Below are positions 4,585 to 64,000 of a DNA stretch of 64,000 nt, in pieces. This DNA is from Obrimoposthia wandeli. Lineage: Eukaryota. Each line of letters starts with the position of its first letter. Positions within the stretch are counted from its first letter, which is position 1. Position numbers and translations under genes: made by a program. The notes beneath the pieces are model-generated. The model worked only from the letters and a program-made list of their open reading frames with translations, made no database searches and was not told where the DNA came from. The stretch spans positions 1 through 64,000 of the forward strand of contig CDROCS010002076.1 of assembly GCA_977020255.1 (NCBI GenBank). Direction: 5' to 3'.

Positions 4585-5075
4585 TTATCTACATGTCAAG
4601 TAATAATAAGATAGACTTAAACATATTTTATATGTGCAATGGTCACAATGACTACGATATGGACAGCAAATATTTCGTGCAATTTTTAATATAAGATCAC
4701 GTGAAATATTTAAAGTATTCAACCTCAATTTGGGAAAATATTTTTTAAAAGTCTTATACTTTTTTCCATCCATTTCATCTAAAACATAAAAAATTCCATT
4801 TTCAATATCAAAATTAGATGTTATTGTATCGAAAATACATATTTCACAAAAAGCCTTTTGTCCTTTCCATTTTAATAAAGGAAAGTAATTAATTAGATAT
4901 AAATTAGTAATTTTTATTTTTAGTCTTAACTTTTAAACGGGATATCTATTTGAAATATGAAATGCAAAGGATGAAAAACGTCGCATACATCCATAATACA
5001 TAATTCTTTTATAATATAATCACCATTTTTGTTAATGAAAGCCTCAAAATCTATGATATATTCCTGCTTAATTAT
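4585..5075 (-). pseudogene. Putative DnaQ/DEDD-fold exonuclease-like Polinton accessory protein, frameshifted
   Basis: Minus frame IIDFEAFINKNGDYIIKELCIMD (ExoI-like DxE) and C-terminal CCPYRSHCDHCTYKICL; resembles, from memory, a small invertebrate Polinton ORF family. Confidence 0.45.
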
Positions 5076-5170
5076 CTAAATTTGCAGCAAATCCCGTTGT
5101 TTATAACGAAAAAAATCATTAATCAAAAATTTATTAAAATAACAAAGTACTCAGGATTCAGTCTTTCATG

Positions 5171-5791: not shown

Positions 5792-6004
5792 TTTTTAATT
5801 ATGAAGAGGTTAATAAATTTGAACCTATATATATAAATTTCAGATATTTTTTAATCCAATTAAATTATTTTTATTTATCAAATGAGAGTTTAATAAATCT
5901 ATAACTTATCATTGCATTTAAACCTAATAAACTTAAAGATAGTATTTTAATATTTATAAATTTAAATTTTTTTAAAATAAATATTAAGAAGAAAACACAT
6001 GAAA

Positions 6005-7814: not shown

Positions 7815-8193
7815 TCTTGATTCTTGATTAATGAAAAATAATGAAAAGAGGTTTCCTTATATACAAAAAACAAGAGACAAACCCTTTTTTAATCATCCAA
7901 TGAAAGTGGGTTATTCAAATAATTTATTTGAAAAACTATAGGCTTTTATCAATTTTTTAACTACGTTTGAATGCGAGTATGTCATTGGATAAAAAAATAT
8001 TTTATTTGAAAATAGTATTATTTTCTGAAGTTTTTGTTGCTTAAGTTCAACGTCCAATGAGAACGTATTATTCAAATAATTTATAGTAATTTCTTAATTT
8101 TTGTTGATGTTTGAATACATATATATCTTTGGATTTAAAATAGTAATATTTTCTTGACTGTACATGTTTGAAGGGTATAAATTTTTATTTCAG

Positions 8194-8334
8194 AGGTCAT
8201 TTAAGGTCAAGTTAAGGTCATGACCTCATTAGATCAAGGTCATTTAAAGTCATCATGAGGTCCAGGTCATTTAAGGTCATGTTGACTCATTCTATGACTC
8301 ATCTATGACTCATCGATGACTCAACGATAACTCA
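8194..8334. promoter_or_regulatory. Cluster of AGGTCA half-sites (DR4/DR5/IR0) followed by tandem TGACTCA (AP-1 consensus) sites
   Basis: AGGTCA at 8194, 8204, 8215, 8237, 8264, 8274; TGACCT at 8221; TGACTCA at 8283, 8295, 8306, 8317. The motifs are seen directly; function is inferred. Confidence 0.5.
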
Positions 8335-8779
8335 TCCGAATAAAATGAAAATGTTGAAATCATTTCCAATTTATGTAGTTGATGATTTAAAATTTTTTGC
8401 GACGATATATATATGTATCTAGATATAAATTCTTATAAAGAATTTTTTTTTCGCAACCCTGTATATGTATTGCTCGTCAAACCACTGCGGGCCCGGAGGG
8501 CACGCTTTGGTCCACTAAACGGCCTCTCAGGACCTTCCTCACTTTTTTGGGAGCATTATGAGATTTTCAATTTTAAAGGGTGTCATATGGGGTTAATTAG
8601 TTTTTTGAGTGTTAAGGGGGTAGAAAATTTCACTCCACACACATGTGCGAAATTTCACTCTACACACATACACGTTTTTAAAGGACATTGGGGGAGAGGG
8701 TGTGGATTAGACCGGATACATCCACCTACTGTATTTAGAAACTGCTTGGTTGCAGACGTTTGGGATGGCAATTTGTAGA

Positions 8780-13100: not shown

Positions 13101-16100
13101 AAGATTATAACTAGTAGAATCACACCAACTTCCTGGAGACAGTGTAGGACAATTATAAATCCCAAACCCAACAAGGACGGCAAGTACGATCAAGCACGAA
13201 ACACGCAACCTATTGCTATATTGAGTACATGCTATGAAGAAACACTGCTACATCCTCCCCTGAAACGTGCTGGGAAGTCCGAGGGATGCGCTGAGCATAC
13301 ATTCATCGAGAGTTGGAAACGCTACAACCTCACTATGAAAGTTCACATAGGCTTTCTAGAAATCTCTGACGCATTGAACTAATCTGTGATGTGTTAGATT
13401 TCAATTTAATACTCCTAAATTCAGTTTGACTAGAAATTAACGTTTTATTACGTGAAAAAGTGTTTGAAGAGAAAATATCGATAATATTCTAAGGAAAAAG
13501 TACAGAAATATAAAATATAGTTTGTTTTAAATTTTATATATTTTGATACATTCTTTCTTTAATTTGAGTAATTTTTTCACGGACATGTGTTGGGAATTAA
13601 AACATTCCAATTTAAATTTAAATTAATTTATCGAAATGCCCACAGTCAAACAGCGATTTTTGTTCAGTGATGTCTAGTTTCTATTTTCTGCTTCGCGATA
13701 GGAAAATTGCCCAAGAAGTAGGAGATAAGACAGAAGAAATTACCATCCTCTATCGATTTTCCTGCCTACCCAATTTTAATTGCACCACATACACACATGT
13801 TATTTTATTGCTTCTATCTGTGTAGTGGTGCCTATTTACGTGTGTGTCTGCAAATTTATGTAATGTCACTTGCGACTGAAATATTAATATAAAATTGTTT
13901 GACATAGAGAGATTTGATATAATTTCTAAAACTAATTTTTTAAATTGCTACAGAAAAGAAGAATTATTGCTGATCATATTTATTACTGTTATCTAAGATC
14001 TAAATAATATAGCCTCCGTTTTATTGGTAATTGTCTTGATTTATTTAATTAATAAGAATTTCCTTGAATTCCCAATGTGATTCCATGGTAATTAGAATCG
14101 AAATCAACATAAAGAAGAAAACTTATATGGTATTTCTTGATAATCGCTACGATTGACAAACTATAAATCTAAAATAGAATTTGAAACTTTCAGGATAGAG
14201 TCAGGAAATTTTTTCAAATAACGCTTAAAACCAAATTTTAACTGTTTAAGTGTATAATTTTGTAATTTACCATTTACCAGTGAAACTCCCAAAATCGATT
14301 ATTGTGATTTAGCACTTTGTTTAACACTCAAATATATTCGTCGAATACTTTGAACAAAATTTACTATTCGTTATTTGAATTTTTGTTGTTTATTTTTCGA
14401 ATAACAAGGATAAATTTTACAACCTAAGGTGTCCAAAAATAATGTAAACAAAAAAGATTAGTCAATTTTAAAATTTCATTTAAGAAAACAGATGAATTTA
14501 TATTGAATTTATATTTTCTTTCATTTCATCCAACAATTTTTTAACACAGTGGATAATAGGATAGTTTTTTTCAAAGCCGTAAAAAATTGAAAATTTACAA
14601 ATCAATTAGAGTTTGAAAAGCTAAGTTTATTATAATTGTGTCTTTCAAAGTGTATTGGATATTATCCATAGAAGCTATTAGATATTACAAATTTATAAAA
14701 ACAAGAGCTTGTTTGAAACGTATGTATATATTATTGTAAGCATTAAAACTATTTCAACATTTAAATTTTTAAAAAATATTCAAGTTTTATAATGAGTAGG
14801 TGGATGTGTCCGGTCTAATCCACAGCACCCCAGTACTTTAAAACCGTGCATGTGTGTGGAGTGAAATTTCGCTCCACACACATCTCATTTTAAAGGGCAA
14901 GAATAATCCACAACCTTTTTTCGCCCCTTTGGCTCGGGATGCGGACTATATTACAGTTTTTCCGCCGACCACGCTCAGGCCTTGGGATGACGACTATATC
15001 CTAGTTTTTTCGCCCCTTTTGAGGCGAACCACAACCGCCCCACCACCCCACATTATGATATATATTTCGGGGAGTTCATACATTCCTTCACCTAGATCTC
15101 TTCAACTTTCCCGTTCCATTGTTAACATACAAAACAGTGATAACCTTTGCTTTCTGTATAGCGTGTTGGCCATCCTCAAAAGGGATGTAATTACTGAGCA
15201 TAGAGAGCGTGTCAGTAAATATATCCCTTTTTAAATGAATTGCAGTATCATGGAATAGATTTTCGTGTTAAATTAACTGCGATATCAAGATTTGAACATC
15301 TTAATAACTTGAGTATTAATGTATTCAAATACAATACTGATATCCCAGTTAATGTACCAGATGAAGAAAATTTTAAAAATCCTTTTTGTAGATGTAATTT
15401 ATAGGAGCAAAAATGAGGGGACTCAGGTCAACTTAATTTTGCTCGAACATAATAAAAAATTCCATTATCCTGCAATTCCCAATTTAGATCGTCTTCTAAA
15501 TTTAGATAATGGAGCCTTACCGGTTAGGATAAGGTGTAAGTGGTGTCATAAATGTTTACATGGATTCCGATCCGAGCTCTCGTACAGCAAACATCTGACA
15601 TTATGTTCACTAAATCCTGATGACAATACGCTATATAGCATGCCTAAGGATAAGGATTTAAAATTCAGGGATTGGGCAAAATGCATACCCGTGGAATTCA
15701 GGGTGTATGCAGATTTTGAGTCAATTCTAGCATTGCACGACCAGTATAAGAGTATTCACCTACCGGCTTCGGCAGGACTACTATTCTTAGGCCCCAATAT
15801 TACACAGTATCATAAATTTTCCGGTCCAAATTGTATTTTAGATTTTATGTTAAAATTAGAAGAATTAGGAACAACAATTGTCAAACCGTGGTATGATCTT
15901 AATGCTCATCAAGCAATGATCATGACAGGCATAGACTGGGTTAATTTTAATTCTTGTAGATTATGTTATTTGTGTGGAACCCAGTCTAAGTTAGTCAGAG
16001 ATCATGATCATGTTACGGGGCGATACTTGGGAGCGTCGTGCAACCTTTTTAACCTTGGCCTCGACTCCCTAAAAAACCACGCATTCCCATCGTGTTTCAT

Positions 16101-40100: not shown

Positions 40101-43100
40101 TCCTATTTTATGAAGGTCAGAGTTCATATTAGAAAGATCTTTCAATTAATGGATTTGAAACATTTAAGCATAGAGTCTTGCGTCGATATCTTTGCAAGCG
40201 GCGGCGGCGATGATTGAAATAAAAAGTTATGTAGCCATTTATTACGACTTATGATTTTCTTCGCTCTTACCGGTTGAATTTATATGTCGATATGCGATAT
40301 GGTTGTACTGTGACAGAACCATCAAAAAGTAAGGGGTTAAGAAATAAGTAAGAACGAATCAAACATATATACTGATAGAAACGCAAAATCAAAACAATAA
40401 GAAACAATTTAGGAAATTACTAGAGTGTGCATAAAGTCATATAAATGTAAATTCTGAATTAAAAAGTCATAATAGGAAAAATTATTTATTAGATTTTAAT
40501 TTAATATATATTGCTTATTATAATCTAATATATTTAACTTTTAGAAAAAATTTATTATTTCATATTATTTTTTTTATTTTTGACCAAGTTTTGTGAACTA
40601 TATGTAGTGTGTTTTTGTTTAAATACTTAGTAAAGAAAAAAACGCGCAGATTTGAATTGACGACATATTGGATTCGAGCGTTAGATTAATATATTCTTAT
40701 CCTACAAGCTATTTCGGCAATTTTTACTGGAAAACGAAAATGAAAAATTTGATGAAAGCAGTGGTTACAATCAGCAGGAAGGGGAGGGATTTTACAGAAT
40801 GGATGGAGAAAGTCAAAGTTATTGCTGCAGTATCGAAAGAGGATTTATGCACCGCGATGCCGCTACTATTGGATGGCCTAGCATACCAGGTTTGGGATAA
40901 CCTAGGTCTGGAGAAGAAGCAGGATCTAAGCGAGATTAAAAAAACGCCTGAACTCGCAATTTTGTGAAAAGGGAATTGATGCTTTTGAAATGTTGAGAGC
41001 GAAAGAATGGAAAGTTGGTGACAATGTGGATGATCTGTTTGGAGAAATAAGAAGACTATGCAAGAAAGCTGGATTTCCTGATAATGATGAGCTGTGTAAG
41101 TGTTCTTTTTAACAAGCTTATCATTGGAGGTAAAAATGCAACTGCGAACAATGGTAGAAACGGATAAAGTGGAAATGACTCAATTACTTGAGAAATCGAG
41201 AATATTGTTAGAAAATAGTTTTCAAGTCACGACATCCGTAAAGAGAGTTAATTCACAAACTGTCAACCGTCAAAGTATTGCGTGTTACAACTGTAACGAA
41301 AAGGGTCATTATTCAAAAGAATGTACGAAGGAAAGAAGATTAAAAAGATGTTTCAAGTGCGGTAAAAGTGGTCACATGGCTTATAATTGTTCAGCAGTTG
41401 TAAACTGCGTAGGAGAGCAGTAAGTGGCGCTAACTCTCCTAAATGCATGGTGCAACCTGTAATCGATGTTGTAGTAAATGGGAAAGTGGCTCGATCTTTT
41501 TTAAATCATGAAGAATTTGGTATACGAGACTCCAGATATTGTTAATAATGAATTGTTTTTGACTAAACACAAGAAGTTATTATGGATATAAACAATAATG
41601 ACATTTATCAAAATATTCAACATTTTTCAAATAAATGTATTTGTGTATTTATTTTCTTTGATTTACATTCAATTTAACTATTAAATTCTGTTCCAAAATT
41701 TGTCGCAAATTTCATTCGGTAGAGTTTATCTTCATGATATTCTATCTTAGAAAAGTTACAACAAAGAAATGAAAGTGTTCATAAAGTGCACTGAAACGCG
41801 CTCTACAATCAAAATTAGTTACAAAATAACTTCCTTGTTCATGTAATTTATAACTTCAAAACAAAATCCCTAACCTCTAATCTAAAATAAAGAATAAAAA
41901 AATAGAAAAGGCATTCATCAACGAGAAAAGGTGTAGATTTATTTCCAAGTCTTAAAAGAAGTCATAACAGAAGGTTTGATTAACTAAATTAAATCATTAA
42001 GAAGATTATTAAAGTAAAATTAAAACTCAAATGTATTTTAAATCATTGTAGGTTCCTTTATTAATACATAGGTAGTACAAAACAGAAACTTACATATTAG
42101 ATTAGACTAGTACATTAAAACTAAATCAACAACATCACGCTGGCATTTTAAAAATCGAAATAATTTAAACATCAACTTAGTAAAGAGAAAGATCGATGGA
42201 TCAACTCTAAATAATCGAGATGAATTGACCAGATTCAGTAGAAATTTAGAACAAGTACATTTTTGCAGAATTAGGACTTAGTTTCTTAAGATACTCTTCG
42301 TTTTCGTATTTTTAGAATCCTTTATTCAGCTTACTTGTTCTAGATTTCACTTCAAAGCAGAGGGCGGGAATCGAAGTGAATGTGGTTAGATTTTCCCTTG
42401 TGATTGTTCCAAACATCGCAGATTGCTACGAGGGTTGTACAAAAGTGTTGCTGGAGAATATAGACCAGATCCGCAACGAGTCCAGCAACCTGTCGAGGAT
42501 CCTTATTCCAAACCGTGAAGAGATCATTAGAAATATAAATGAATCAATTTCAGATTATCGCGAACAACTGGCGTGGCTGAAACGATTTATGGTCGTCAGA
42601 GCAACTGTTGAAAACATGACTTCCATCGTAAGTTGTCGATACTCTGACATTTTCTCTAACCGCACTTATTTGCTCAAAAGTAAATGGATTTTAAACCAAT
42701 TCAGCTTCTTTCCATTGATTCCTATCTTTTAATGATTAACAGTGTCAAATGCTGCAGATAGATCCAGAAGCATCATTAGTACACATTTTCCGTTTGTCAC
42801 AGATTTTAATACAAAGTCTCTACACTCAACAATGCCGTTTCATTCAAATCACAACTTCTGAAAGCTGATTAGTAAATAGTGAGAAAATGATTTATTTATC
42901 GAAACCAATTTTTAAAGAACTTCCTATAGAAATGAGTTTTGAAATCGGTTTAAACTTAAATTAGACAAAATTGTATTACTTATAGAAAAAAGTAGTAAAT
43001 CATACAGTTTCTGACCAGTTACAAGCTTTTCATTAGTTTATCTGAATTTAGCAATATTTGTTAAACTTTTCTTTAAAATGCTATAGGAAGCTAGAATATT

Positions 43101-46100
43101 TATAATTTGACAAATCATCATTATGTAACAATGAGAATATGACCTTTAATATTTACAATATTTATAAAAATAAAGATGCTCCATTTACAAATGCATATAA
43201 ATTGATAAAAAAAACGACCAAGTTCTGTAACATTCGAGTATTAAATATACAAATTATTTAAAATTAGCGATATTACTAAGAAGTTTTAAGATAAATATAT
43301 TATATTATTAATTGTGTGTATTATGTTTTTGTTGTTATTTTTCTAGTACCAAACTAAGAAGGAAAAAATCAATGAAGCTCTGAACAAATATTGGAAGATC
43401 CAAGATGAATACGTAAAAACTCTCGAGAGATTGAAAAGTAAGTAGCTATCAGAATCGAAAATATCACAAATTAAAAAATCGCATTCAATTTAACGTCAGA
43501 AATATTTATCTGTTTTATGAAACAATATTTTAAATGATAAAACTTGTGAAAAATTAAATTAAATTTAGTTATTTTGTTTTAATAAGATATTTGATAGCGA
43601 AAATCGAGTAAAAGCCTTCTACTTTTTTCAAGTCCTAAAATATTTTCATATGACCCAAATTATATATCAATAATAAAATGAATCCCATAAAATTTACAAA
43701 CATAAAATATTTTTTCTCATTTTGTTTTATTAAATCAATTTATTTTAAACATAATTTTAAAACCGAGTTTTGTAAGCTATTAAGGAAGTGTCGAAATTTA
43801 AATGAAGATATTGCTTTAAATACACAGTGCAACAGCAAAGTTTTCCCTGTAATGAAAAAAGTTGATAAGTTTTCTTGTCAAAGATGTCTGCTTTAAGCTT
43901 TTCCAAAAAACATGCAACAGTCATAACAACAAAGAATCCAATAAGAAAATATCCTTCTACTGATATAACTTCAAAGCTAACGTATGTGATTATTACTTTT
44001 CTGTTTAATTTTTACAGATTATTAATTAAACTGCTTGCAAAACATTTAAAGCGAAGCAGTCAATTCAATTTAAAGAAAAGTGCTAGTACAAATGAACATA
44101 TAATGAGATTCCATTGGCTGCTGATCAATGCCAGAATTGAAATCAATAATCTATTTGTTATTGAAAAAAGTATTTTATCACAAAAGTTCAATTATTTATA
44201 TGATCTTCTCGATAATATATGCATATGTGTTTCGAAATATACAGAGAAAAATCAGAGAAATAAAACATTTGAAATTTGGAATCTTTACAACAATTTAACG
44301 ATTGATATAAGAAACTCTATCGATGTGAAAAAATTTCATAAATTCACAAAAATATTCAAGGAAGCATGTATTTATTAAATGTAAACTCTGTAATAAATAT
44401 ATTATTGTAATATGTAATTGAAGCAAAAATAAGTTGGAAAAATCAGCATCTCTTTTGCAGTAGTCTGGAATTGGATTATCTAACTGCAAAATGTTTTTTC
44501 TTGAGCTTTAGAAATTTTTTTGATTGTGCAAAGACAGGACCCGATATATCGAAATGGATATTAATTTTGAATTTAGCATGTCAGAATTATTCATAATCAG
44601 CTCTAAAATCTTATACACAAACATTTGTGTTGGCCTGTCTTACAATTTTCTATTTTCCCGGTTGGAAAAGCAATATTTAAGTAATGCTCTAAAACAAATG
44701 GTCTTTATAACAATGGTCATCACAATTTTCTTACATGTGGAGTAGTTTTAGACTAATTTTGTGGTGTTGAATCCAATTCTGAACTCAAATTTTTTCATTT
44801 GAACATCACATTTTAGTTTTATCTTTATTTTACCAAAGATTAACTTTCCATCACTATTTCAGGGTTTTAGGATGTGGATTGCAACTTTCATGCTGATCTT
44901 TGTTGTTGTATTTTTCATGTGTTTGGTATACGAAAGTACCTCCATTCAGATGATCAGCTTGTTTATTTTAAAAATGTCGAAGGGCTTCTTCTCGCTATTG
45001 GAGTGCCTGCATTTGATTTAAGTGCTTGGAGACTTGTTAAAAGGACAATTCTAAAAGGAGCTTCAAATGTAAAACAAAATGAAACAAGAGTATGCCAACA
45101 TCAGATTCTTCTGGAGAGCTTGGGAAAGCTTTCTGTGGAATCCGCAAGGAGGTTACACAAAATACTCATGTTTCCTATGCAACTGGAACAGAAGGGCTAC
45201 AGTAGATCACTGGATGACAAATCTGCTTTTGATCCTTTTTGCACTCCAGTATACCGTGCCACTGCATCCTGTTGTCGGTTGGGTGTGGCTGTGAGCTCAG
45301 AGTCACGAGTTCATCCAATAATTTGTCTAAGCTTCACCAGGCCCTCTTCAAATTCTGGCTGATTGACGCCGCTTATTGAAGATAAGATGCAAAATCCTCC
45401 CACGCTCGCATCTAGTTTTGGCTCAGCTTGATAGACCAGTCTGCAGGAATTGCCCAATAATGCCTGCTGCTGACGTGGCTGGCTTCCGGAGGTGAAAACT
45501 CAACGGATGCAACTGGGATCCCCTCGTACAGCCTTCGTGACATTGGTCCTCAGCTTGATAGGAAAAAGATTGTCTTTCCCTTAATGCATATAAAACTGAT
45601 TTTGCGAAAACGATTCGTCAAAGGACATTGAGTGGAGATTGCTTCAGTTATTGCGCTGAAGATTTCATTATTTGTATTTTTCTCTAAAAAATTGAATGAT
45701 GAAAATGTAATATAATAACCATAAATAACCTGTTTCATATTAAATGCGGAAAGTTTTAAAGTTGCTCAATTAAACTACAATAATTTATTAATTTTTAAAA
45801 TGACAATTTTTTTTCAGATCTTACCAAAACAATTGATGGAATTATGTCTGATCAAAATAAGAAATCGATAAGCACCGGAGACATGATCATAAATGCTTCA
45901 CTTACTCTTCAAGAAATTACAATCATCTCTGACAACATTCCATCGATAGTCGAAGTTAAAGATTTGATAAAGTTAGATTTTAAATTATTATTTTTCCTAG
46001 AAAACGTTATTGTTTATTGTCAGTAGTGTATTTTTCTAAATAAAATTGATTAACTAAATTTTAACAGGAACCTCACAGAACATTTGAATCGTTTATACAA

Positions 46101-49100
46101 GCTAATCAATGGTACAGCAGACAATCTGAAAGGAGAAAACCTTGATCACATTGGAAATATGACTAGACAGCTCAAAGACGCCGAATCACTCAACACAGTC
46201 AACAAAGGGATTGTACGAGGATTAAACAAGAAATTAAAAGAATATGAGAAACAAAAAGTTAGTCGATTCGGAGAGATCAACTGAACTTACAATTTGTATA
46301 GGAATTTCATTTTGTTATTTTATTACCCAGGTCGTAGATGTTTTTGTTGTTGAAATAAAATATGAAAATAACATATGCTATAGTACGTTTTAAGTAAAGT
46401 ACGTTTGATGAATTTTTGGATGCTTAATTAAAATAATAAGCATACAAGTAGGTGGAAGGATGGAGTCTAGACCACTTGACCCCCCCCCTAAAGGGTGTCA
46501 CTCCATAAGGATGTCACACCATAAAAGGTGTCTTGCCATACCATAAGGGTATATGTTGCCTCACCAGAGGTGAGGCAACATATACCCTTATGGTGTGGCA
46601 AGACACCTTTTATGGTGTGACACCCTTTAGGGGGAGGGGGAGGTGGGGGGGGGTCAAGTGATCTAGACTCCATCCTTCCTTGATATACTACTATGGTCGT
46701 CCATAGTTTAAAGGGTCAAGTGGCTTAGTCTCCACCCATCTTTTTGTGGTCTAGTCTCCACCCATCTTTTTGTGGTCTAGTCTCCACCCATCTTTTTGTG
46801 GTCTAGTCTCCACCCTTCTTTTTGTGGTCTAGTCTCCACCCTTCTTTTTGTAATCTAGTCCATAATGAAAATTTATGATAAAGTTCACACTTAACAATTA
46901 AGAATGTATGACGTAATCATACACACACTATTCTATGTGAAAATCAAGGCTAAAGTTCACTCTTATCAGTTAAGGAATGTGGTTTTTAACACACACACTA
47001 TTCTATGTGAAAGTTTAGATCAAATTATTTTCCTAGGTTTTCACATTTATAGAATTATGATAAAATTTCTTTAAATAACTTCAATTATATATTAAAATAA
47101 AAATAAAATAAGAAAGAAGTCAGAGAATAATACAAAATTAAACACATTATTATGTAATTTCATAATATCATCTTCAAACTTAAGTGAATAACATTTACAA
47201 AGTAAGAAAGTCCATTCTTTATACATTCTTTTCGTTTCAACGACTAAGTTACAACGGAATTAATAGAAAATTAGTAAAAATATTAATTTATTTGAATATT
47301 TGAATGAGAGTTTGAATTAGAGAGAGGTAGAATGAATGTAAATGAATAAAATTATGCATGCAAGTATGAATGTCATTTACAAGTAAGAGGGTTTAGCAAG
47401 TGAATGTAATTTTTAAAAATAAGAGTGTCGATAGTTTGATTGAATGCAAGTGTAATTTAGACTATAAGTAAATTAAAATAGAGATTTTGTTGAATAAATT
47501 ATAGTTAGATTGAATGCAAGTATGACGAGCAAGTGATTGATAGTTTGAATTTTCAATACAAGTAAGTGGGTTTAGCAAGTGAATGTAATTTTTAAAAATA
47601 AGAGTGTCGATAGTTTGATTGAATGCAAGTGTAATTTAGACTATAAGTAAATTAAAATGGAGTTTTTGTTGAATAAATTATAGTTAGATTGAATGCAAGT
47701 ATGACGAGCAAGTGATTGATAGTATGAATTTCAATACAAGTAAGTGGGTTTAGCAAGTGAATGTAATTTTAAAAATAAGAGTGTCGATAGTTTGATTGAA
47801 TGCAAGTGTAATTTAGACTATAAGTAAATTAAAATAGAGATTTTGTTGAATAAATTATAGTTAGATTGAATGCAAGTATGACGAGCAAGTGATTGATAGT
47901 TTGAATTTTCAATACAAGTAAGTGGGTTTAGCAAGTGAATGTAATTTTAAAAATAAGAGTGTCGATAGTTTGATTTTTTTTTTAAATTACTTGATATTTT
48001 TTTTTGCCATTGTCCGTTTAATATAATATGAATATTCAATTTATTTCTTCAAAAATTCATTTTATATGTTAAATAATATTCTTTATCACATTATTGTGGT
48101 TTTTATCAAGTGATTTTAACCTTAAACTATAAAAATATTTTAATTATAAAGTTAGTTGCTGTACCCCGCCCACTGCATATAACATAAATTTCAAATATAA
48201 AGTACTATTAAGTTTATTATTTCGAATAGTAAATGTTTTTTTTTTTTGAGTTATTTAATTTTGTTTACTAGACATTCGAAAATTTACTTGTAAACATAAT
48301 ATAATTTTGCATATATTCACTTTAATATGTTGTAAGTTATTACTTTAATATAATTTACAACCAAAACTTCAAATAGTTTACTTAATAATCATAATATTAA
48401 TGATTTGTACGATAAATTGACTTGTAAACATAATATATTTACAACAACAAACTTCAAGTAGTTACTTATTAAACATAAGTTTAATGTTTTGTACAATAAA
48501 TTGACTTGTAAACATAATTTATTTTGATATATTTTCAATTTAATATGTTGTAAGTTATTACTTTAATATAATTTACAACAAAAACTTCAAGTAATTTACT
48601 TGTAAACTACAATATTTATTTGTTGTTGTATATATTTAGTTTAAAATGTTGTAAGTTATTACTTTAATATAATTTTCAACAAAAACTTCAAGTAGTTTAC
48701 TTATTAAACATAAGTTTAATGTTTTGTACAATAAATTGACTTGTAAACATAATTTATTTTGATATATTTTCAATTTAATATGTTGTAAGTTATTACTTTA
48801 ATATAATTTACAACAAAAACTTCAAGTAATTTACTTGTAAACTACAATATTTATTTGTTGTTGTATATATTTAGTTTAAAATGTTGTAAGTTATTACTTT
48901 AATATAATTTTCAACAAAAACTTCAAGTAGTTTACTTATTAAACATAAGTTTAATGTTTTGTACAATAAATTGACTTGTAAACATAATTTATTTTGATAT
49001 ATTTTCAATTTAATATGTTGTAAGTTATTACTTTAATATAATTTTCAACAAAAAACTTCAAGTAGTTTACTTATTAAACATAAGTTTAATGTTTTGTACA

Positions 49101-52100
49101 ATAAATTGACTTGTAAACATAATTTATTTTGATATATTTTCAATTTAATATGTTGTAAGTTATTACTTTAATATAATTTACAACAAAAACTTCAAGTAGT
49201 TTACTTATTAAACATAAGTTTAATGTTTTGTACATTAAATTGACTTGTAAACATAATTTATTTTGATATATTTTCAATTTAATATGTTGTAAGTTATTAC
49301 TTTAATATAATTTACAACAAAAACTTCAAGTAATTTACTTGTAAACTACAATATTTATTTGTTGTTGTATATATTTAGTTTAAAATGTTGTAAGTTATTA
49401 CTTTAATATAATTTTTCAACAAAAAACTTCAAGTAGTTTACTTATTAAACATAAGTTTAATGTTTTGTACAATAAATTGATTTGTAAACATAATTAATTT
49501 TGATATATTTTCAATTTAATATGTTGTAAGTTATTACTTTAATATAATTTACAACAAAAACTTCAAGTAGTTTACTTATTAAACATAAGTTTAATGTTTT
49601 GTACAATAAATTGACTTGTAAACATAATTTATTTTGATATATTTTCAATTTAATATGTTGTAAGTTATTACTTTAATATAATTTACAACAAAAACTTCAA
49701 GTAGTTTACTTATTAAACATAAGTTTAATGTTTTGTACAATAAATTGACTTGTAAACATAATTTATTTTGATATATTTTCAATTTAATATGTTGTAAGTT
49801 ATTACTTTAATATAATTTACAACAAAAACTTCAAGTAATTTACTTGTAAACTACAATATTTATTTGTTGTTGTATATATTTAGTTTAAAATGTTGTAAGT
49901 TATTACTTTAATATAATTTTTCAACAAAAAACTTCAAGTAGTTTATTTATTAAACATAAGTTTAATGTTTTGTACAATAAATTGACTTGTAAACATAATT
50001 TATTTTGATATATTTTCAATTTAATATGTTGTAAGTTATTACTTTAATATAATTTACAAATATCGTAACAACCAAGTTAACTTACCAGATAACTGTGTAG
50101 TTAAGGTAATTTATCATTTAGTCTGAAACAATGAATACCAAATCGCCTACAATGCATGTATAATTTTAATTGTCAACTATAGTAAACTATAATACTCTTT
50201 GTGTACAGTAATAATTTCAATATATTAAAGTAAACATTTACAAAATATAATCTGTTTACAAGTCAATTTATCATACAAATCCTTAAATTATGATTAATAA
50301 GTAAACTACTTGAAGTTTGTTGTTGTAAATATATTATGTTTACAAGTCAATTTATCGTACAAATCATTAATATTATGATTATTAAGTAAACTATTTGAAG
50401 TTTTGGTTGTAAATTATATTAAAGTAATAACTTACAACATATTAAAGTGAATATATGCAAAATTATATTATGTTTACAAGTAAATTTTCGAATGTCTAGT
50501 AAACAAAATTAAATAACTCAAAAAAAAAACATTTACTATTCGAAATAATAAACTTAATAGTACTTTATATTTGAAATTTATGTTATATGCAGTGGGCGGG
50601 GTACAGCAACTAACTTTATAATTAAAATATTTTTATAGTTTAAGGTTAAAATCACTTGATAAAACCACAATAATGTGATAAAGAATATTATTTAACATAT
50701 AAAATGAATTTTTGAAGAAATAAATTGAATATTCATATTATATTAAACGGACAATGGCAAAAAAAAATATCAAGTAATTTTAAAAAAAAATCAAACTATC
50801 GACACTCTTATTTTTAAAATTACATTCACTTGCTAAACCCACTTACTTGTATTGAAAATTCAAACTATCAATCACTTGCTCGTCATACTTGCATTCAATC
50901 TAACTATAATTTATTCAACAAAAACTCTATTTTAATTTACTTATAGTCTAAATTACACTTGCATTCAATCAAACTATCGACACTCTTATTTTTTAAAAAT
51001 TACATTCACTTGCTAAACCCTCTTACTTGTAAATGACATTCATACTTGCATGCATAATTTTATTCATTTACATTCATTCTACCTCTCATTAATTCAAACT
51101 CTCATTCAAATATTCAAATAAATTAATATTTTTACTAATTTTCTATTAATTCCGTTGTAACTTAGTCGTTGAAACGAAAAGAATGTATAAAGAATGGACT
51201 TTCTTACTTTGTAAATGTTATTCACTTAAGTTTGAAGATGATATTATGAAATTACATAATAAATGTGTTTAATTTTGTATTATTCTCTGACTTCTTTCTT
51301 ATTTTATTTTTATTTTAATATATAATTGAAGTTATTTAAAGAAATTTTATCATAATTCTATAAATGTGAAAACCTAGGAAAATAATTTGATCTAAACTTT
51401 CACATAGAATAGTGTGTGTGTTAAAAACCACATTCCTTAACTGATAAGAGTGAACTTTAGCCTTGATTTTCACATAGAATAGTGTGTGTATGATTACGTC
51501 ATACATTCTTAATTGTTAAGTGTGAACTTTATCATAAATTTTCATTATGGACTAGATTACAAAAAGAAGGGTGGAGACTAGACCACAAAAAGAAGGGTGG
51601 AGACTAGACCACAAAAAAGATGGGTGGAGACTAGACCACAAAAAGATGGGTGGAGACTAGACCACAAAAAGATGGGTGGAGACTAGACCACAAAAAGATG
51701 GGTGGAGACTAGACCACAAAAAGATGGGTGGAGACTAGACCACAAAAAGATGGGTGGAGACTAAGCCACTTGACCCTTTAAACTATGGACGACCATAGTA
51801 GTATATCAAGGAAGGATGGAGTCTAGATCACTTGACCCCCCCCACCTCCCCCTAAAGGGTGTCACACCATAAGGGTGTCACACCATAAAAGGTGTCTTGC
51901 ACACCATAAGGGTATATGTTGCCTCACCAGAGGTGAGGTAACATATACCCTTATGGTGTGGCAAGACACCTTTTATGGTGTGACACCCTTATGGTGTGAC
52001 ACCCTTTAGGGGGGGGGTCAAGTGGTCTAGACTCCATCCTTCCACCTACTCATACATATATATAAGTTTCTTGCTCTTATTTTCTTCGTAAAAAAAGCAT

Positions 52101-55100
52101 TTTTATGCATTACAATATTACTACGTCTTTTTCAAAGTTCAAAATTTTCTTTAAAAATGATAAACAAATATTTAAACAATATTTAAACTATATTTATATT
52201 TTTAAACTTTTCAATACTTTATCTAACTTTAACAAATTTAAAATTCTATGCAGATTGAGATTTGTTCTTAATTTTAAGATTATATACTTTACTTTCTTTC
52301 TGTGCATAAAAGTTCCTCGAATGAAGCCATAGGAACATTAATCTTAAAAAAAATGTTGTAGTCAATCTCCTAATGTACAATTTTTATATTTTCCATAACT
52401 ATCGCAATTGAAACTGTATAAGGGAAAAACTGATTGTAGATTTAGAATTACCAATGTAACCTTAAATAATATTTAGTAGCAGAACATAAACATTTTTCTT
52501 GGCTAGTTTAGTTCCCCTATTCTTTCAGCGAGACCTGATAAAGATGATCCAAGAGGCAACATCAGTCTACATGGACTACAAAAAGCAGAAGAAATTAATC
52601 GACCAAAATATCAATCACACAAAATACCTCTCAGAAGAAGCTCGTTCGAAAGTAAAAGAAGTATGACCTTTTTACCGAATTATTTCTAATGCTCAAACCC
52701 AAAATTGTTCAGCTCGAGGCTCGACTCGAGCATGCAAAAGCGGAGTTGGCCAACCTCAAGGATAAATCAAAAAAATCAATTCACCTCACGATTCCGGATG
52801 AAGTGAAGAAAAGTGTCGAAGAAAAACTTGCCGAAGCTAAGGAAATAATTCGGTATGTACTACTTTTATTTTAGATTAAAGGTTCGACGAATGATAATTT
52901 GAAAATATTTTATCTTTATCTCATTGGAGGAAGCAGAGAGCTAGGTTCGAATAACCGAGAGAAATACCTTCAGAAATGTTACTGTACAATTTAAACAATT
53001 AAGACCATTATAAACTCTTTAGACTCAAACTAAATCTTCCCTCGACCTAATAACAAAAAATGCAAGACTTTTAAAGAGAGTCTTTTTTAGGCCTTATAAA
53101 TATAATACATTTATATATCTACCTTACACACTGTACCCTAACAGACCTTGTTCATCACAAATATTTATTTACCAACGGTTAATATCAAATTCAGTAACAA
53201 AAACTTATTATTGGACTTTATTAAATATAAAAAATATATATAGATATTGCAAAATAATTTTAATATATCCAAAAAATATGACCAGGGGCCAACAATTATG
53301 AGAGTTACTAAATTAAAAAATAAATATTATAGCGATGGCAATTGTGATAAAAATAAAATAAAAATTATAAAAATAAATAAATTAAAAAAGGACCTGATTT
53401 TTGAATGACGATCTAGCGGCGTTGGCACAAAGAATTTATTTTATTTCCAAAAATTGAAGGTTTATATATCCTCTCATTTACATGCTGTGTCCGGGTCTTC
53501 CTGGCGGGGCCTTTGATTTAGATTAGTTTAAACTAAATGGGTTTGGTCATCTAGATAATTTTCCCACTTAGATTCCATCGGGTAACCCGTTAGTAGGTGT
53601 GTTTGCCTGTTAATATTGTAAAGTTTTATGTACTTTCTTATACTATATGACGTTTTTACCCAAAGGTGTGATTTTGATGAGCCGTACATATTTCAATTGG
53701 AAATAATTTATGCTTAAAAATTATGTTTTGTTCATTTATGTGCGACTTTTAGATGTCTAGAAATTATTCTTCAAAGTTTAATTAATTAACGTTTTAATTA
53801 ACAAAAATCACATTTTGTCGATATTTCATTACTTATTTATGTGTAGTTCAGATTTTGATCTAAGGTCTTTCTTTAAAAGGTTATTCATAACAATGTGAAT
53901 TTTACACAAAATTAATTAGTATTTTAAAACTATTGTTCTTTATTGTGGGTCACTACATAACATTTTAATAAGTATTTTGGTATAAACTTTATGCATAACT
54001 TAGCAATTGTTATTTATTTGCTTTATATTTTTAAGGATAGTTATTTAAATATTTTTTATTTTACTGTTCTTTTAAATTTTTCTCTAACATAATTTAAAAA
54101 TAAAAATATGTTTATCCAAACACAAAAAGGTCTCAAGCACGAACGAAAATATTTATTTCCATTAATAATTTGAAAGCAGGATTATGTCACACCATTGGAT
54201 TATGTTGCAGAAATCTCACACAAGATACGAAGTTCCTGCACAACGCCGAGGATGCTAAAAGAGCATACTCTAACATCACTCGTGACATTCAAGACGTGGA
54301 GAAGGACGTCAGAGAAACCAAAAATATTATTGACGACGAGAAAAGAAAATTGGACCTTGGTGGCTTCAACTTAGCTATTTTAGAGGCAGCAAAATTGAAA
54401 GTTAAATTCAGCAATGACGTTACCGGATTTAAACAAGATGTTGATGGTAGATAATTTTTAAATACTTTATATATATATCATATTTTACTACTAGTTATAG
54501 TCAAGGGCATATTTTATTCAAACTGTAAATTTTATTTATTTCAGACTTGGAGAAGCGGTTTAAGATTTCTTACAAAGAGCAACGAGAATATGAGCTGTTT
54601 TTGACACAAACTATGGATTTTTTAAGTAACAATTCGTTTAGCAGTAAGTGGATTTTAATTGTGTAATGGAGTAGTGATACCTGTTGTTCAATTCCTAGTC
54701 GCAGTTACTAATGTTTGACTAAGGAGTTCGAATTTCATTAAAATAAATGGAGGGGTTCATACAATTCGGCTTTGTCTTGCAGTCATTCGAGAGAGAAACA
54801 TAACAGCGACAAAGGATTTACAACAACTGGAATTGGCGAGCATTATCAAGACCCTGAAAGAAAATATCGCTACTATAGTATTGCCTGAATCGAAAACTCT
54901 GGATTTGGAGAAGTTACAGAAGTCTTGTAAGTGACAAGTTCAAGAGTAATGCCCTTATTCACATTCTACTTCATTTTGTCGATGTATTTTCCTATGTTTT
55001 TGTCATAAAATCTAAATATATTATATAAAAAGTAACTTAACTGACAGGAAAATATCAATATTGTATAATGTTTATATAATAATTTGATGGTCCTCATTGT

Positions 55101-58100
55101 TAAAATGGTATCCGAGTTTTTACTGAAATTCCCGATAACATTTTTGAAGAAAAAATAACAATTTCATAATCTACTAGATTTGAGTTAATCTCTACTTTAT
55201 GCTCCATTATGATTTCGTTTATTTGCAACATATATCTGATTACATGTTCACACAACACATATACAAACTAGAAATATGCACAAAACACAGCTCAGACATA
55301 AATTCCCATCATAGCAGCATCCAACGTTCCTGCATATCCTTTCCCCTCGTTCTCATGTTTTGATGAAACCTTCCACCGTGTTCTTCACTGATGTCACCCA
55401 TATTTGGCTTAAAACTGGATATATGAATGTAGGTATTAAATTAACCGAATTGTGTGTTTCCTGCTTATACACCCAGACAGATGTAACACGACAATGCATG
55501 GTAAGTCAATAAGCATATACATAATTCACAAGATTTCAAAAATGGCATTCAAAATACAATAAAACGAGTAACATGTTTGTATTCGGTATCGCTGAATTAC
55601 TCTTTTAAGACTAAGAATAAAGATAAACAAAATGATGTGACACGGTGTTATATAAATAGAAATTTAAAGATTGTAATAACCCTAGATATTTAGTAAGATG
55701 AGAATACCAACCTAATCAAAGTCGAATATCTCTACATTACAAAAACGATGCGGAGCACATTTTGTGGTGCTCGCATTCTTACTCTCCCAAAATCCTGAAA
55801 ACGGGTTTAAGGAAAAACTTTGAAAATTGTTAAGATGTGGGGTACTGTATATATTTGGTTTCCAAACATTCAAAAAAGCATTAACATTATAAATTATACC
55901 AATTTTTGAAAATAACTGGACTTCCTGAGATCCAATGTTTTCCTTATTCTCATACGATTTCATCACTTGTATATATTTAGGTAGAATCAAATGATTTAAC
56001 ATTTTAACATGCATACCTTCGTGTACACCAATAGAAATACACGCAGGATGTATCAAAGTGAATACTCCAACCCAAAAACTAAGTAATAAATATCTAAATC
56101 ATTAATACATATAATTTTCAATGTGATCGCCTTTTTTATCGAATGAGAAGCGATTTTAGAATTGACAATTTCATGCTGCAACGTTTAACAAGCGAAGAAG
56201 GATATTTTTATTGTGAAGACTGCTTATCAAACTTGCAAATTCAGAGCAGTTGTTTGATTTTCTAAAGCAACCTATGGACACTCAAAGGACACTTGTTTTT
56301 TACAAGACTGATAAGATTAAAGAAATTTTTATAGCAAAATACCGATGGATATACGAAAATGTAACAATATAGAAAAATTCAAGAATAATAATGGAAAACA
56401 GGAAGCACTTTTGAGTATTGATTTAATAGATAAATGGCTTGATTGTCCAATGAGGGACTTCCATCTACAATAGATCCACAAACTGCGACTTCATATAGTG
56501 CACAATCGCTTCCAAATGAGAGTAGGTACTTTGAGGGAGTCTAGACCACTAGGGGGTCCCCTTACGTAATAATCGGAAGTGAGTGTGTGTATATCGGTAG
56601 TGACTACGTAATATCCTAAGGGTGGTCGTCCGCAGCATAAGGGTCGGGCTGAGAAACGTTATGAAGGTTTGAAGGTCCAACTCCTTAGGCTAAATTGCGT
56701 CGTGATCTATCTGTCCCAATTTCGATTTAAAGTAAGATAAAATCTTCATTAAAAAAAGGTTAACCGTGTTACGTTGAGCCAGCGCTCCCTTAGCTACTCT
56801 CACATGGCTCCCATTGAGGCCTCTGACGTGTTTGTGCAGTGTTGAGCACAAAGTCACAATACTCGACGATAGTCGGGAGATCGGAAAAGCTCCAGTCGAG
56901 CATCAGCAGTTTGCGGGACCGAGTGCGGTCTGTGCGAGACAATATTCGCAGTCAATTCCTGGTAACAAGCGAGCTGGCCCACGGAGCTGCTGCCATGAAC
57001 CCGTCACCAGTCTTCATTACCGACTCCTGCGTCAGAAGTTACCGTACATACTACTTGCCGACCACATTCGACTTCTCCCTCTCGTGAGTGCCACTTTCTG
57101 TTCTTGTATGACTTTCTGAACATCGAATCTGATACATAACATTGGCTAGGATGTCACAGGGTTTGATTGTAAATATTGTGAGACTTATGATTGGCTAAAA
57201 TTTAACCAATGAGAAGAAAGCATTTAAAAATAATTTATCAATTAAAAATTTAGTTATAAGCCGTAAGTTTAAACGATCTTTTTATTTTTAAGTTAAATTT
57301 TCAGGCAATTCCGGAAATACTTGAAATATTCTAATACTTAAGAAATTTCATGTACAATTATTAACAAAAATATCTGAATTTTATATTTATGTGAAGTTCT
57401 ATTTACCTTTAAAATATTTTTGATGCAGATTTAAAAATGCACGTGAAGTTCGTGTAAAGAAACGGAGGAACAATTTTTGCTGCTCTCAGTCAGGAATCAG
57501 TTGAAATAATCAATTTAGCAAACATAATCGTTTCACTCCAGATGCCCCATAAAAATGAAGAAACACGTTTCCCAAAAACTGGATCGAAAACGAAAATTTG
57601 CAGATGCCGGCAAAATAGTCTTAGCAGCAATGGGTTTAGGGGTTTAAAGTGTGATAACACTAGGATTACCACTAAGTGTAAACTTTAACCAGTACAGTCA
57701 TTTTCACTGCATTAGGAAAATTGTTATTTATAAGAAAAAAACGAAAGAGAGGCAAGAAATTTATTCCCACAAGTTACAAAGAGCTTTTGTATGAAAATGA
57801 GACTCACAATAATAAATTTTCCATGATTCACAAGTTCGAGAAGATTTTTTTATACACAAATTTATATACATTTCATAATGTTTCTTTTTTGAGTCTTTTG
57901 TTTATTCGGTGATCAACTTGAAATAACGGTTTCCGTTTGAGAATATTTTTTTATGGAATCGCCATTTTAATCGCTTATTTAAATTTCAGTAGTCTCCATG
58001 TATAGAACATAGGAATTTAATGCAGCCTCATCGGCCATAGGTCATCTTTTACCAATAGCCTTTGTAGAATACAACCGAATCATATTGTCACAAATTTGTA

Positions 58101-61076: not shown

Positions 61077-64000
61077 GTAAGTGGATCTTTGGTTACATTT
61101 ATTAATTTGCTCACAATTTCGTTTTTTTTCTATTTATCCTGTGATTGGAAAAATACAGTAAAGTTGTGAAGTGAGAACTGACAAAATATTGAGTTATGTG
61201 AACAAAGTCAGTTATTTCAATCGTTTTATTTCTGTGTAAATTAGTGTGAAATGATTATCAAAAGTGAAAAGCAATTTCTATAATGAAAAATAATATTAAT
61301 GAAATCAAAACAAAAGAAGACGAAATTATATTATCTGGATTGAATAGCAAAATAAAAAGAAGTTTTATACATGTTTGTAGAAATATTATAAAATTAAAAA
61401 CTAAAATAAAGATATTGGTTCCGTCTTCGATGAGAACATTTCAATTAATTGTCAAAATAATAAAGTAATAAGAACATGCAACAGTCATATTGAACATATT
61501 TTTCTAATAATAAAATACCTTACTACAGAAATAAGTACAAAGCTGACATGCGCGTTTATTTTATCAAGATTTGATATTCAAAATTCTTTACTGTTAAATA
61601 TTCTAGCTAATAATATAAAAGCTTTCAAAAATTTTAACAACGCTGTCAAAATTATATTCAAATTAAAGAAAGTGCTAGTATAAGTGATTATTTAATAAAT
61701 CTAAATTTACTGCTGATCAATGTCAAGATTGAATTCGAGATTGTAATTATTATCAACAAATGTTTTCTCTCACAAAAGTCCAAATATTTATATAATCTCC
61801 CCAAGCCTGATGCAGTGAGCAAGTATATTCATCTAAGGAGCAACGATGATGACTGCAGTTTAATCAAAAAGTACTCAAATAACGAAAAAAGTATTGGAAA
61901 ATTTGAAATTTATATTCTGAATCTTTACAAAAAACTACCGATGAATATCAGAAATTGTAACAAATGTTACAAATATTCAAGAAGCAGCTAAAGACTTTAC
62001 TATTCAGAAAATATTAGGTAAATGTTAGCGCTTTTGAGTACAGTGTATACTCGTAGATAAGACAATTAGAAATAAGACAATTAGGAAATTAGATATAAAA
62101 GATGAAATATACATGTTTAAACTGTATAAATACAAAATGAACAAATCAGTGATAGAACCCAATTAGTTAATGTATTAAACGAACTTTATTTAAATCAGTT
62201 ATCCGAATAGGCACCTCAGAGAACGGTCTTCATATAATTCGTTATGTGCAAACAACTTGGCTTCACCTCATATGTGCAGTCATTGTTGAAAACATCGCCG
62301 AGGTTCTCTTCATATTGTTCAGCACCCTTTTCTCATCAATGGACTGCCGTCATGGTGGTTTCATAACCATTAACTTTAATCCACCAGGAATGATCGTATC
62401 ATGAATTTCCGGCAGCAAGCTCAGCTTTACCCGAATAACTAAGGTCACTTACGAATCGCATCAGGTCGTCTGTTCCATATTGGATCTAACTAATCCAGTA
62501 CCAGATCTCCAGCTACCCGACCCTTAGATTGGGCGTGTCTTTTAGTGGTTTCTTATTTTGGCAAAAGTTTCGTTTCACAATTATGAACGGTTGTAATTTT
62601 GTACCATCGGCTAGTAAAACTAGTATATACGCAATGTGTAACTTTTCACTGCCTACAGTTTAATAGAAACTGTCTTATCGACCATTTTATGGACTGTGAC
62701 GGAGCTGGGAATGTTCAACCGAACTCGTGTTTAAACAGCTTTTCCAATTGAACTAAGGGGAAAGTGAAAATGGATGATGCCGCACTGAATTGTGATTTTT
62801 ATCTTTTCCTGATAATCCACAGGGAGTTTCTGACCCACGGGAATTCTATATCGATTGATACTTTGAAATCATTCAGTTAAATATTCGAATCAAATGCCGA
62901 CACAAGAACACATTTCTCTCGAATTGCATAGATTTTTTCCTATGAGCAGTCTTTAGACCTCAAGAAACTTTGGAGTCGAGTACCGATTTTCTTTTTCAGA
63001 CCGATGCTGCTCTGTTATTCCAGGCGATGATTTCTACCACCTTCGAAGACAATATTCCGAAATTCCTAAATACCAGCAGCTCTTTAATACTGAGTAACTG
63101 TTGGTTAAGTGTTACTGCTTCCAGTGTTTTTTGTTTGTATGTTCATTGCCGATACCTATAGAAGCAATATTTGAGACAATTTCATAAAATATACCAAGGT
63201 AGGAGTTCTGAAATATCTGCTCCATATTTAAACTGGTGAGACTGCAATTACTGAGTGTCGCTTTTAACTTAATCATTAAGAATTTATTGGCGCAATCTGA
63301 TTGGAGCAACAAAAGTAGGTATAAATCCTAAAAGTTCGATTATCAGAACTTCGATGTATTACAAAAATCTTTATATAATGTGCATCTATGTGTAATATTT
63401 AAAAAATGGATAGAATTGAAATGTTTGCTTTTGTAATATCTATAATGGTTGAATATTTTGATTATTTTTAAAGGTTTAAGTTTATCAACTCATGCTTAGA
63501 GGTTGAATATTTTATTTTCTCCCTGTGGAAAATGAAGTGTCGATAATGGCATCCAGCTAAACGGAAATTAGAACTTCTTAAATTCGCAGAAGAAAGGGCA
63601 ATAGAGCGCAGTGATAACATATGAAGTAAAGAGAGCAATTTTAGGTTATGGAGTAAAACAAGAAAGTTTTAGAGGTCACGCACCCGAAGAGGTAACGCGT
63701 CAGAGGTATAGTTGGTAATTCTTTTGATATACGTTACTCTTGGCATAGACTATTTCCAACCGTATTAAGGAAACAGCTAAATTAAAAATTATGTGAGCAT
63801 TAAATGCAGCCTTATCATAAAAACCCTTGTGGTCCATTGAAACGTTGAAGATTTAGTTGAATATATTCATAACATACTATCCAGAATAGCCACTCCCATT
63901 TGTTATGAATATATGTTGATTTTTCTTTTGACTGTTAGATTGTTTTGATGGTTTTACATTGATCTGCCGATAACAAACATTTTGTGATGAAAAGAATATA

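What the first reader, a model, noticed from the sequence alone, without database searches (positions are those of the whole stretch)
46447..52050. 5.6-kb gene-less foldback element mobilised by Polinton machinery
Seen: perfect 6-bp TSD, Polinton-type AGTAGGTGGA ends and ~2-kb near-identical inverted arms around a satellite core, with no coding capacity. Established: 6-bp TSDs and AG-starting TIRs are Polinton hallmarks. Inference: a recently inserted satellite-like parasite of the Polinton, built almost wholly of cis signals and repeats. Inside a laminin intron it would also create a ~1.8-kb dsRNA stem in the pre-mRNA (siRNA/ADAR substrate).
Basis: partly seen in the sequence, partly recalled or inferred. 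Interest (0 to 1): 0.75.

Follow-up and report, generated by a model that had tools for sequence, protein, structure and literature searches.

The report
Gene-less foldback element with Polinton ends
A real 5.6-kb gene-less piece of mobile DNA, built as two mirror-image arms with a small hairpin inside each end, sits in an intron of a laminin gene; its ends resemble those of virus-like Polinton elements in the same genome, so it probably borrows their enzymes to spread.

Summary
In detail: CATACA is duplicated around a 5,604-bp gene-less element with near-identical inverted arms, inside a laminin-gene intron. Two corrections. The 'satellite core' is a one-sided tandem expansion of the left arm's inner end; only 144 bp are unique. 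Each end also holds a 226-234-bp palindrome and 6 or 9 outward-pointing copies of a terminal motif. The first 30 nt match two ends of coding, broken Polintons in the same window at 22 and 21 of 30; 0 such hits in 100 shuffles. Contigs of two runs from one sample show 32 and 105 unlike flanks joined at this exact terminus, so the end is a multi-copy mobile end. Not shown: TSDs and interiors of other copies, the helper, an empty site, RNA. Best reading (0.75): non-autonomous snap-back parasite of Polintons. This scan already reported at least five 13.6-15-kb elements of this kind in other genomes (unchecked notes). The small size, nested end hairpins and multimerised motif are what this one adds. 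New variant of a known kind.

The parts
46441..46446 (+). Left target-site duplication, CATACA
46447..52050 (.). Whole element, 5,604 bp, non-coding; 56% in tandem arrays
46447..46476 (+). Terminal 30 nt; positions shared by all four element ends in the window read AGTAGGT-N11-GTCTA-N2-CCAC
   Evidence: boundary at 46447 marked independently by contig loose ends
46454..46679 (.). Left nested palindrome, 226 bp, starting 7 nt inside the end; 3-nt loop AGA at 46566-46568; inner arm is an inverted copy of the terminus lacking its first 7 nt
   Evidence: (-111.4 kcal/mol, z -21.6)
46726..46860 (-). 26-bp tandem array, 5.2 copies; each unit carries a variant of the terminal GGAG(T/A)CTAGACCAC motif pointing outward (6 outward copies at this end, counting the palindrome's inner arm)
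46861..47377 (.). AT-rich arm segment (23% GC), near-identical in both arms
47378..47975 (.). 179-bp tandem array, 3.4 copies; the right arm has two units fewer (355-nt gap)
47976..48461 (.). Inner part of left arm, near-identical to 50306-50790 inverted
48328..50059 (+). One-sided tandem expansion of the left arm's inner end: 8 units of 134-136 nt (mean identity 98%), 4 of 101 nt (identical), 1 of 218 nt
50060..50203 (.). Unique 144-bp spacer, the true loop; no other match in the window
50204..52050 (-). Right arm, 1,847 bp
51550..51763 (+). 26-bp tandem array, 8.2 copies (9 outward motif copies at this end)
51810..52043 (.). Right nested palindrome, 234 bp; loop reads TCT from its own end, i.e. 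inverted relative to the left end
   Evidence: -131.3 kcal/mol, z -24.3
52021..52050 (-). Right terminal 30 nt, identical to the left
52051..52056 (+). Right target-site duplication, CATACA
46068..46257 (+). Context: host exon before the intron 46258-52528 (661 bp without the element)
52529..52660 (+). Context: host exon after the intron, in frame with the previous one
8701..8730 (-). Context: end of broken Polinton 1 (runs off the window's left edge), 22 of 30 identical to the element's end
14795..14824 (+). Context: end of broken Polinton 2 (14795 to about 22400), 21 of 30 identical
56521..56550 (+). Context: solo end of a related element, 24 of 30 identical, no partner end in the window

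Best explanation
A non-autonomous, gene-less parasite of Polinton/Maverick elements. Shown: the anatomy, the shared 30-nt end motif, a 6-bp duplication and many different insertion junctions for this terminus. Inferred: (1) it arose when replication from a Polinton-type end switched template and copied back, leaving a ~3.8-kb near-perfect palindrome with a 144-bp loop; (2) a second, smaller fold-back made the 226-bp end palindrome, and slippage multiplied the GGAG(T/A)CTAGACCAC motif into the 26-bp array, giving each end one true terminus plus 6-9 extra copies of a likely protein-binding site; (3) a displaced single strand folds into a panhandle that recreates the double-stranded end, a helper's protein-primed polymerase copies it and a helper's retroviral-type integrase inserts it with a 6-bp stagger; (4) the tandem arrays expand and contract in each arm separately. 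The inverted 3-nt loop most likely reflects a local template switch inside the hairpin, not full hairpin resolution.
For: 6-bp TSD with AG...CT ends; 6-bp TSDs and AGT-starting ends are Maverick features (PMC8097293); other 6-bp-TSD DNA transposons (IS3EU/GingerRoot) end in TA or TG (PMC10045372). Three positions outside the element reach 21 of 30 identity to its end, against 0 in 100 shuffles; two are ends of coding Polinton remnants. Those remnants hold an rve integrase (Pfam PF00665, E 4.7e-8), a piece whose 407-aa homolog scores 0.97-0.98 to double-jelly-roll capsid clusters (recognition value below the tool's threshold), weak pPolB hits, and the same gene set and order as 13-14-kb metagenomic contigs. 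Contigs with loose ends exactly at 46446/46447: 32 in X1, 33+72 in X2, flank agreement 0.4; summed depth 1.5e5 and 3.6e5 against 3-4 on the flank.
Against: Similarity to the local Polinton ends stops after ~30 nt (scores beyond that are at shuffle level: 70 and 45 of 100 shuffles reach them), and by local-alignment score alone the matches are modest (1 and 3 of 100 shuffles reach them). AGTAGG is not one of the three 6-nt end motifs listed for vertebrate Mavericks. The local Polintons carry stops and frameshifts, so the helper was not seen. Only 124 of 5,604 element bases were laid on reads, so the other termini may belong to elements with other interiors, including coding ones; 27 contigs diverge at 46485. 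X1 and X2 are one sample. No listed contig bridges this copy's own junction.
Confidence: 0.75

Rival explanations
1. In-place remnant: a full Polinton of an unseen subfamily with ~1.85-kb terminal repeats inserted here and then lost everything between them. The gene-less form never moved.
For: Polinton TIRs reach 1,447 bp in vertebrates and ~2 kb in butterflies. The many junctions prove only a multi-copy end, not a multi-copy gene-less interior.
Against: The centre holds no coding remnant. The two local Polinton ends lack the long palindrome (z -1.5 and -3.2 against -21.6). Arms differ by 0.28%, leaving little time for deletion plus a 13-unit expansion.
Confidence: 0.13
2. Foldback-type derivative of an ordinary cut-and-paste transposon (like two-TIR Galileo copies) whose ends resemble Polinton ends by convergence or capture.
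For: Long TIRs with internal tandem repeats that differ in number between the two arms and carry secondary transposase sites are described for Galileo (PMC3573991). IS3EU/GingerRoot also make 6-bp TSDs.
Against: Galileo TSDs are 7 bp; IS3EU/GingerRoot ends are TA or TG; the in-register 21-22 of 30 match to real Polinton ends had 0 equivalents in 100 shuffles.
Confidence: 0.08
3. Assembly artefact: a fold-back chimera or collapsed repeat.
For: Palindromes and satellites are hard to assemble; no listed contig spans the junction or the element. The best-holding runs may be the assembly's own source.
Against: Exact 6-bp duplication; four host exons chain across the element in one open frame of 204 codons; arms differ in substitutions, loop orientation and repeat counts; four runs of one sample hold 0.86-0.89 of its sampled words.
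Confidence: 0.04

Closest known systems
Polinton/Maverick elements (PMC8097293; PMC3014272)
   Same: 6-bp TSD, AG-starting terminal inverted repeats, shared 30-nt end motif with coding copies in this genome.
   Different: No polymerase, integrase, ATPase, protease or capsid gene; 5.6 kb rather than 12.7-24.6 kb; arms make up nearly the whole element.
Non-autonomous or gene-depleted Polinton derivatives (polB-less butterfly polintons, bioRxiv 10.1101/2025.02.07.637071; Tlr1, sometimes called non-autonomous polintons, PMC5499653; non-autonomous entries in Kapitonov and Jurka 2006 and Repbase are recalled, not read)
   Same: Polinton-type ends, dependence on functions supplied in trans.
   Different: The published cases I read keep several genes. 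This one keeps none and is a near-complete palindrome.
Endogenous virophages and PLVs of Halocafeteria with palindromes inside their TIRs (bioRxiv 10.64898/2026.07.28.741278)
   Same: Palindromes within the TIR next to the TSD; hairpin-primed replication proposed there, untested.
   Different: Those are coding elements of a protist, the example palindrome is 52 nt, and they go with non-pPolB replication genes. Here 226-234 bp, set 7 nt inside the end, in a gene-less animal element.
Galileo / Foldback-like TIR elements (PMC3573991)
   Same: Long TIRs, internal tandem repeats varying between arms, copies made of two TIRs only.
   Different: P-superfamily transposase, 7-bp TSD, no Polinton end motif.
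Copy-back / snap-back defective interfering viral genomes (recalled, not read)
   Same: Both ends are copies of one terminus, genes are lost, cis sites are amplified.
   Different: This element is integrated with a TSD; interference with a helper is not shown.
13.6-15-kb gene-less palindromic Polinton satellites noted earlier by this scan in other genomes (unchecked notes)
   Same: Same overall plan: Polinton-type ends, long mirror arms, few or no genes, many copies.
   Different: About a third of the size; no shared sequence found; nested end hairpins not found in those notes by a word search.

Membership tests
Autonomous Polinton/Maverick | Encodes pPolB and rve integrase | tested here: not met
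   Longest stop-free stretch 75 aa; 0 hits from 20 Polinton ORF pieces
Autonomous Polinton/Maverick | Capsid, ATPase and protease genes; 12-25 kb | tested here: not met
   5,604 bp, no ORF
Polinton-mobilised non-autonomous element | 6-bp TSD | tested here: met
   1 of 1 copy readable; other copies not testable
Polinton-mobilised non-autonomous element | AG...CT terminal inverted repeats | tested here: met
   AGTAGG differs by one base from the (AGT)2 motif
Polinton-mobilised non-autonomous element | Ends shared with a coding Polinton of the same genome | tested here: met
   22 and 21 of 30, first 10 nt identical; 0 in 100 shuffles; no similarity beyond ~30 nt
Polinton-mobilised non-autonomous element | Dispersed copies of the gene-less form | tested here: inconclusive
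Polinton-mobilised non-autonomous element | Intact helper with matching ends | not testable with these tools
   Both local Polintons broken; 0 of 50 metagenomic loci of relatives held a matching end
IS3EU/GingerRoot | TA..TA or TG..CA termini with 6-bp TSD | tested here: not met
   Ends are AG..CT
Galileo/Foldback (P superfamily) | 7-bp TSD | tested here: not met
   6 bp exactly
Galileo/Foldback (P superfamily) | Long internally repetitive TIRs | tested here: met
Rolling-hairpin replicon (parvovirus-like; recalled) | Whole terminal hairpin occurs in flip and flop forms | tested here: inconclusive
   Loop is inverted between the ends, but the C/T site and G-run that mark outer and inner arms are not swapped; only two ends examined

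The most novel reading that the evidence does not exclude
A family of small, gene-less snap-back satellites of animal polintoviruses, amplified to hundreds or thousands of copies, that outcompete their helper by carrying a second inverted origin in a terminal hairpin and a multimer of the origin-binding motif, as defective interfering genomes do. The motif conserved across four ends (AGTAGGT-N11-GTCTA-N2-CCAC) would then mark the cis signal for Polinton replication or integration, and the end hairpins could allow self-primed copying.
Probability: 0.35. Interest if true: 0.78.

Novelty: new variant of a known kind. Interest (0 to 1): 0.52.

Why it matters
The cis signals that Polinton polymerase and integrase recognise have not been defined in the papers I read. 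A gene-less element that keeps only ends, and multiplies one motif within them, points to those signals and makes them testable by binding assays. If such elements recur across animal genomes, as earlier notes of this scan suggest, they are a class of repeats that gene-based Polinton searches miss. Intronic copies could also feed long double-stranded RNA to host silencing pathways.

Tried and rejected
Exact and degenerate end motifs gave 0 matches in viral contigs and metagenome contigs. The capsid alignment found no confirmed locus in viral contigs (0 of 12 candidates). Of 154 metagenome candidates 50 were relatives; none held a matching end (best 20 of 30, none starting AGTAGGT). No RNA holder listed: no evidence either way on expression. 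Runs X5 (share 0.15) and X6 (0.07) laid nothing on the stretch used: no evidence. Two contigs (X1 record 4, X2 record 16) stop matching at 46446 with, on my reading of the record coordinates, 13 and 2 further letters unaligned; this may be an empty allele, but the letters were not shown, so I do not count it. PDB sequence searches with the ATPase and protease pieces gave nothing useful; those two labels rest on recalled motifs and gene order. Pfam named only the integrase piece above its cut-off among the Polinton pieces. Weak blastn hits of the satellite to Polinton 1 near 5920-6020 (E 0.002-0.024, AT-rich) were rejected as composition. My first exon boundaries gave stops and were corrected; the frame-shift control was not clean (one shifted frame also open). 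Full flip-flop hairpin resolution was considered and not favoured. Nine paper searches showed no description of a gene-less palindromic Polinton derivative; the library lacks most subscription papers, Kapitonov and Jurka 2006 and Repbase, and I read no supplements, where such elements may be listed.
Full report
1. Observation. The element spans 46447-52050 (5,604 bp) and is flanked by CATACA on both sides; the duplication is exactly 6 nt. Both ends begin with the same 30 nt. Aligning 46447-48460 with the reverse complement of 50307-52050 gives 1,639 matches, 15 substitutions and 8 gaps. Four substitutions lie outside the terminal 240 nt, about 0.28%. The long gaps are three extra 26-bp units on the right and two extra 179-bp units on the left. 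The innermost ~100 nt match at 83 of 104. No frame is open for more than 75 codons, 20 ORF pieces of the neighbouring Polintons give no tblastn hit, and Rfam gives none.

2. The 'satellite core' (48328-50059) is 13 units of 101-218 nt that repeat the inner end of the left arm in the same orientation; the right arm has the same sequence once, inverted. Only 144 bp (50060-50203) are unique. Two right-arm lengths plus the spacer make 3,838 bp, so the basic element is a near-complete palindrome. Seven bases inside each end begins a second palindrome, 226 bp on the left and 234 bp on the right, folding at z -21.6 and -24.3. Its inner arm is an inverted copy of the terminus without the first 7 nt. 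The 26-bp array behind it carries a variant of the terminal motif in each unit, so the ends hold 6 and 9 outward-pointing copies besides the true terminus. The 3-nt loop is inverted between the ends (AGA against TCT), while a C/T site and a G-run that distinguish outer from inner arms are not swapped.

3. Host context. The element lies in the intron 46258-52528, which would be 661 bp without it. Four exons, two on each side, have AG/GT boundaries and chain into one frame of 204 codons with no stop (boundaries chosen by hand, after two failed tries). Upstream exons on the same strand match laminin EGF domains and 6 of 33 candidate proteins, all laminin-like. That the coiled-coil-like exons around the element belong to the same gene is inferred from strand and order.

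4. Link to Polintons. The window holds two broken Polintons, 92-97% identical over their polymerase region. Evidence for that name: an rve integrase above Pfam's cut-off; weak hits to DNA_pol_B_2 and a phage polymerase family; 31 of 399 candidate proteins of ~407 aa matching the capsid piece, one of which scores 0.97-0.98 to double-jelly-roll clusters, with a recognition value under the tool's threshold; and the same genes in the same order on 13-14-kb metagenomic contigs. Their ends at 8730 (-) and 14795 (+) share the first 10 nt and 22 and 21 of 30 nt with the element. A third, solo end at 56521 shares 24 of 30. These are the only three positions outside the element at 21 or more of 30; 100 shuffles gave 0. 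Against: beyond 30 nt the similarity is at shuffle level, the Polinton ends lack the long palindrome, and both copies carry stops and frameshifts.

5. Copy number. Four runs of one sample hold 0.86-0.89 of the element's 299 sampled words; they may be the assembly's source. I laid 4 of 6 runs on 44900-46570, which holds only the first 124 of the element's 5,604 bases. In X1, 32 contigs have loose ends at 46447; in X2, 72 at 46447 and 33 at 46446; flank agreement is 0.4, as expected for unrelated AT-rich sites. This fixes the boundary independently of the TSD. Summed contig depth is 1.5e5 (X1) and 3.6e5 (X2) inside the end against 3-4 in the flank. The tool warns that this is no copy number; allowing 31-fold inflation and four motif copies per element still leaves about 330-780, a rough floor, not a count. 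Some contigs keep the first 30-39 nt and then diverge, and 13 and 11 contigs show a GAA loop. The interiors and TSDs of these copies were not seen. 209 loose-end rows were not displayed.

6. Mechanism. Shown: anatomy, shared end motif, one 6-bp TSD, many junctions. Inferred: origin by copy-back from a Polinton-type end; folding of a displaced strand into a panhandle; copying by a helper's protein-primed polymerase; insertion by its integrase. The panhandle model is Kapitonov and Jurka's, seen here only as summarised in the Halocafeteria preprint. The motif multimer would raise affinity for a helper protein, as proposed for tandem repeats in Galileo TIRs. Self-priming from the end hairpin is possible but needs the 7 unpaired terminal bases to be removed and restored, and the unswapped arm markers do not favour it. 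I give the parasite reading 0.75, an in-place remnant 0.13, another transposase 0.08 and an artefact 0.04.

7. Comparison with what is known. It is not an autonomous Polinton. It meets the three testable marks of a Polinton-mobilised element (TSD, ends, shared ends in the same genome); dispersal of the gene-less form is inconclusive. Papers and what I saw: PMC8097293, passages and section 7; PMC3014272, passages (reports no non-autonomous Polintons in Anolis); PMC10045372, passages; PMC3573991, passages; bioRxiv 10.64898/2026.07.28.741278, passages and section 7; bioRxiv 10.1101/2025.02.07.637071, passages; PMC5499653, passages; PMC6431247, PMC5718144, PMC12220804 and bioRxiv 10.1101/2024.01.15.575659, passages. 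Kapitonov and Jurka 2006 is not held; that it and Repbase list non-autonomous Polintons is recalled. Nine searches found no description of a gene-less palindromic derivative, within the limits of the library. Earlier notes of this scan describe five 13.6-15-kb elements of this plan in other genomes; they are unchecked, I did not test them, and I took the term 'snap-back' and one paper lead from them.

8. Verdict. A real, apparently young, multi-copy-ended foldback insertion, most likely a gene-less parasite of Polintons. New variant of a known kind; interest 0.52. Its particular value is that four element ends in one window and a motif multimer point to a short candidate cis signal.

Noticed in passing
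window 1-8730 and 14795-22400: Two broken Polintons of one family, 92-97% identical in the polymerase region and in opposite orientation, flank a 6-kb stretch with exon-like host sequence. In the second, the end joins the middle of the polymerase gene after ~260 bp, an internal deletion; its far end was not found.
   Followed up: partly
window 56521-56550: Solo Polinton-type end, 24 of 30 identical to the element's end, with no partner or TSD in the window; suggests a further subfamily.
   Followed up: partly
window 46472 and 46661: The C/T difference between outer and inner palindrome arms is present at both ends of this copy, yet one search lists no such variant at 5% or more; it may be private to this lineage and copied to both ends before insertion.
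   Followed up: no
window 46566-46568: Contigs of other copies show a GAA loop (13 in X1, 11 in X2). C-GAA-G is a very stable single-strand DNA mini-hairpin (recalled).
   Followed up: no
window 28263-29836: 392-bp tandem array, 4 copies, 97% matches, AT-rich, unrelated to the element.
   Followed up: no
window 25960-27350: Broken Tc1/mariner-like element (DDE_3 hit at 26728-27072).
   Followed up: no
window 45292-45403: Another high-copy repeat in the upstream intron (summed depth 3,700-12,800).
   Followed up: no
window 40700-41500: Gag-like fragment with two CCHC zinc-knuckle-like motifs (read by eye), probably an LTR retrotransposon remnant.
   Followed up: no
L013 794-957: Two adjacent imperfect palindromes (90 and 74 bp) in an intergenic part of a 14-kb metagenomic Polinton contig.
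   Followed up: no
window 44063-44206 and 61656-61798: Dispersed 144-bp repeat pair at 76% identity.
   Followed up: no
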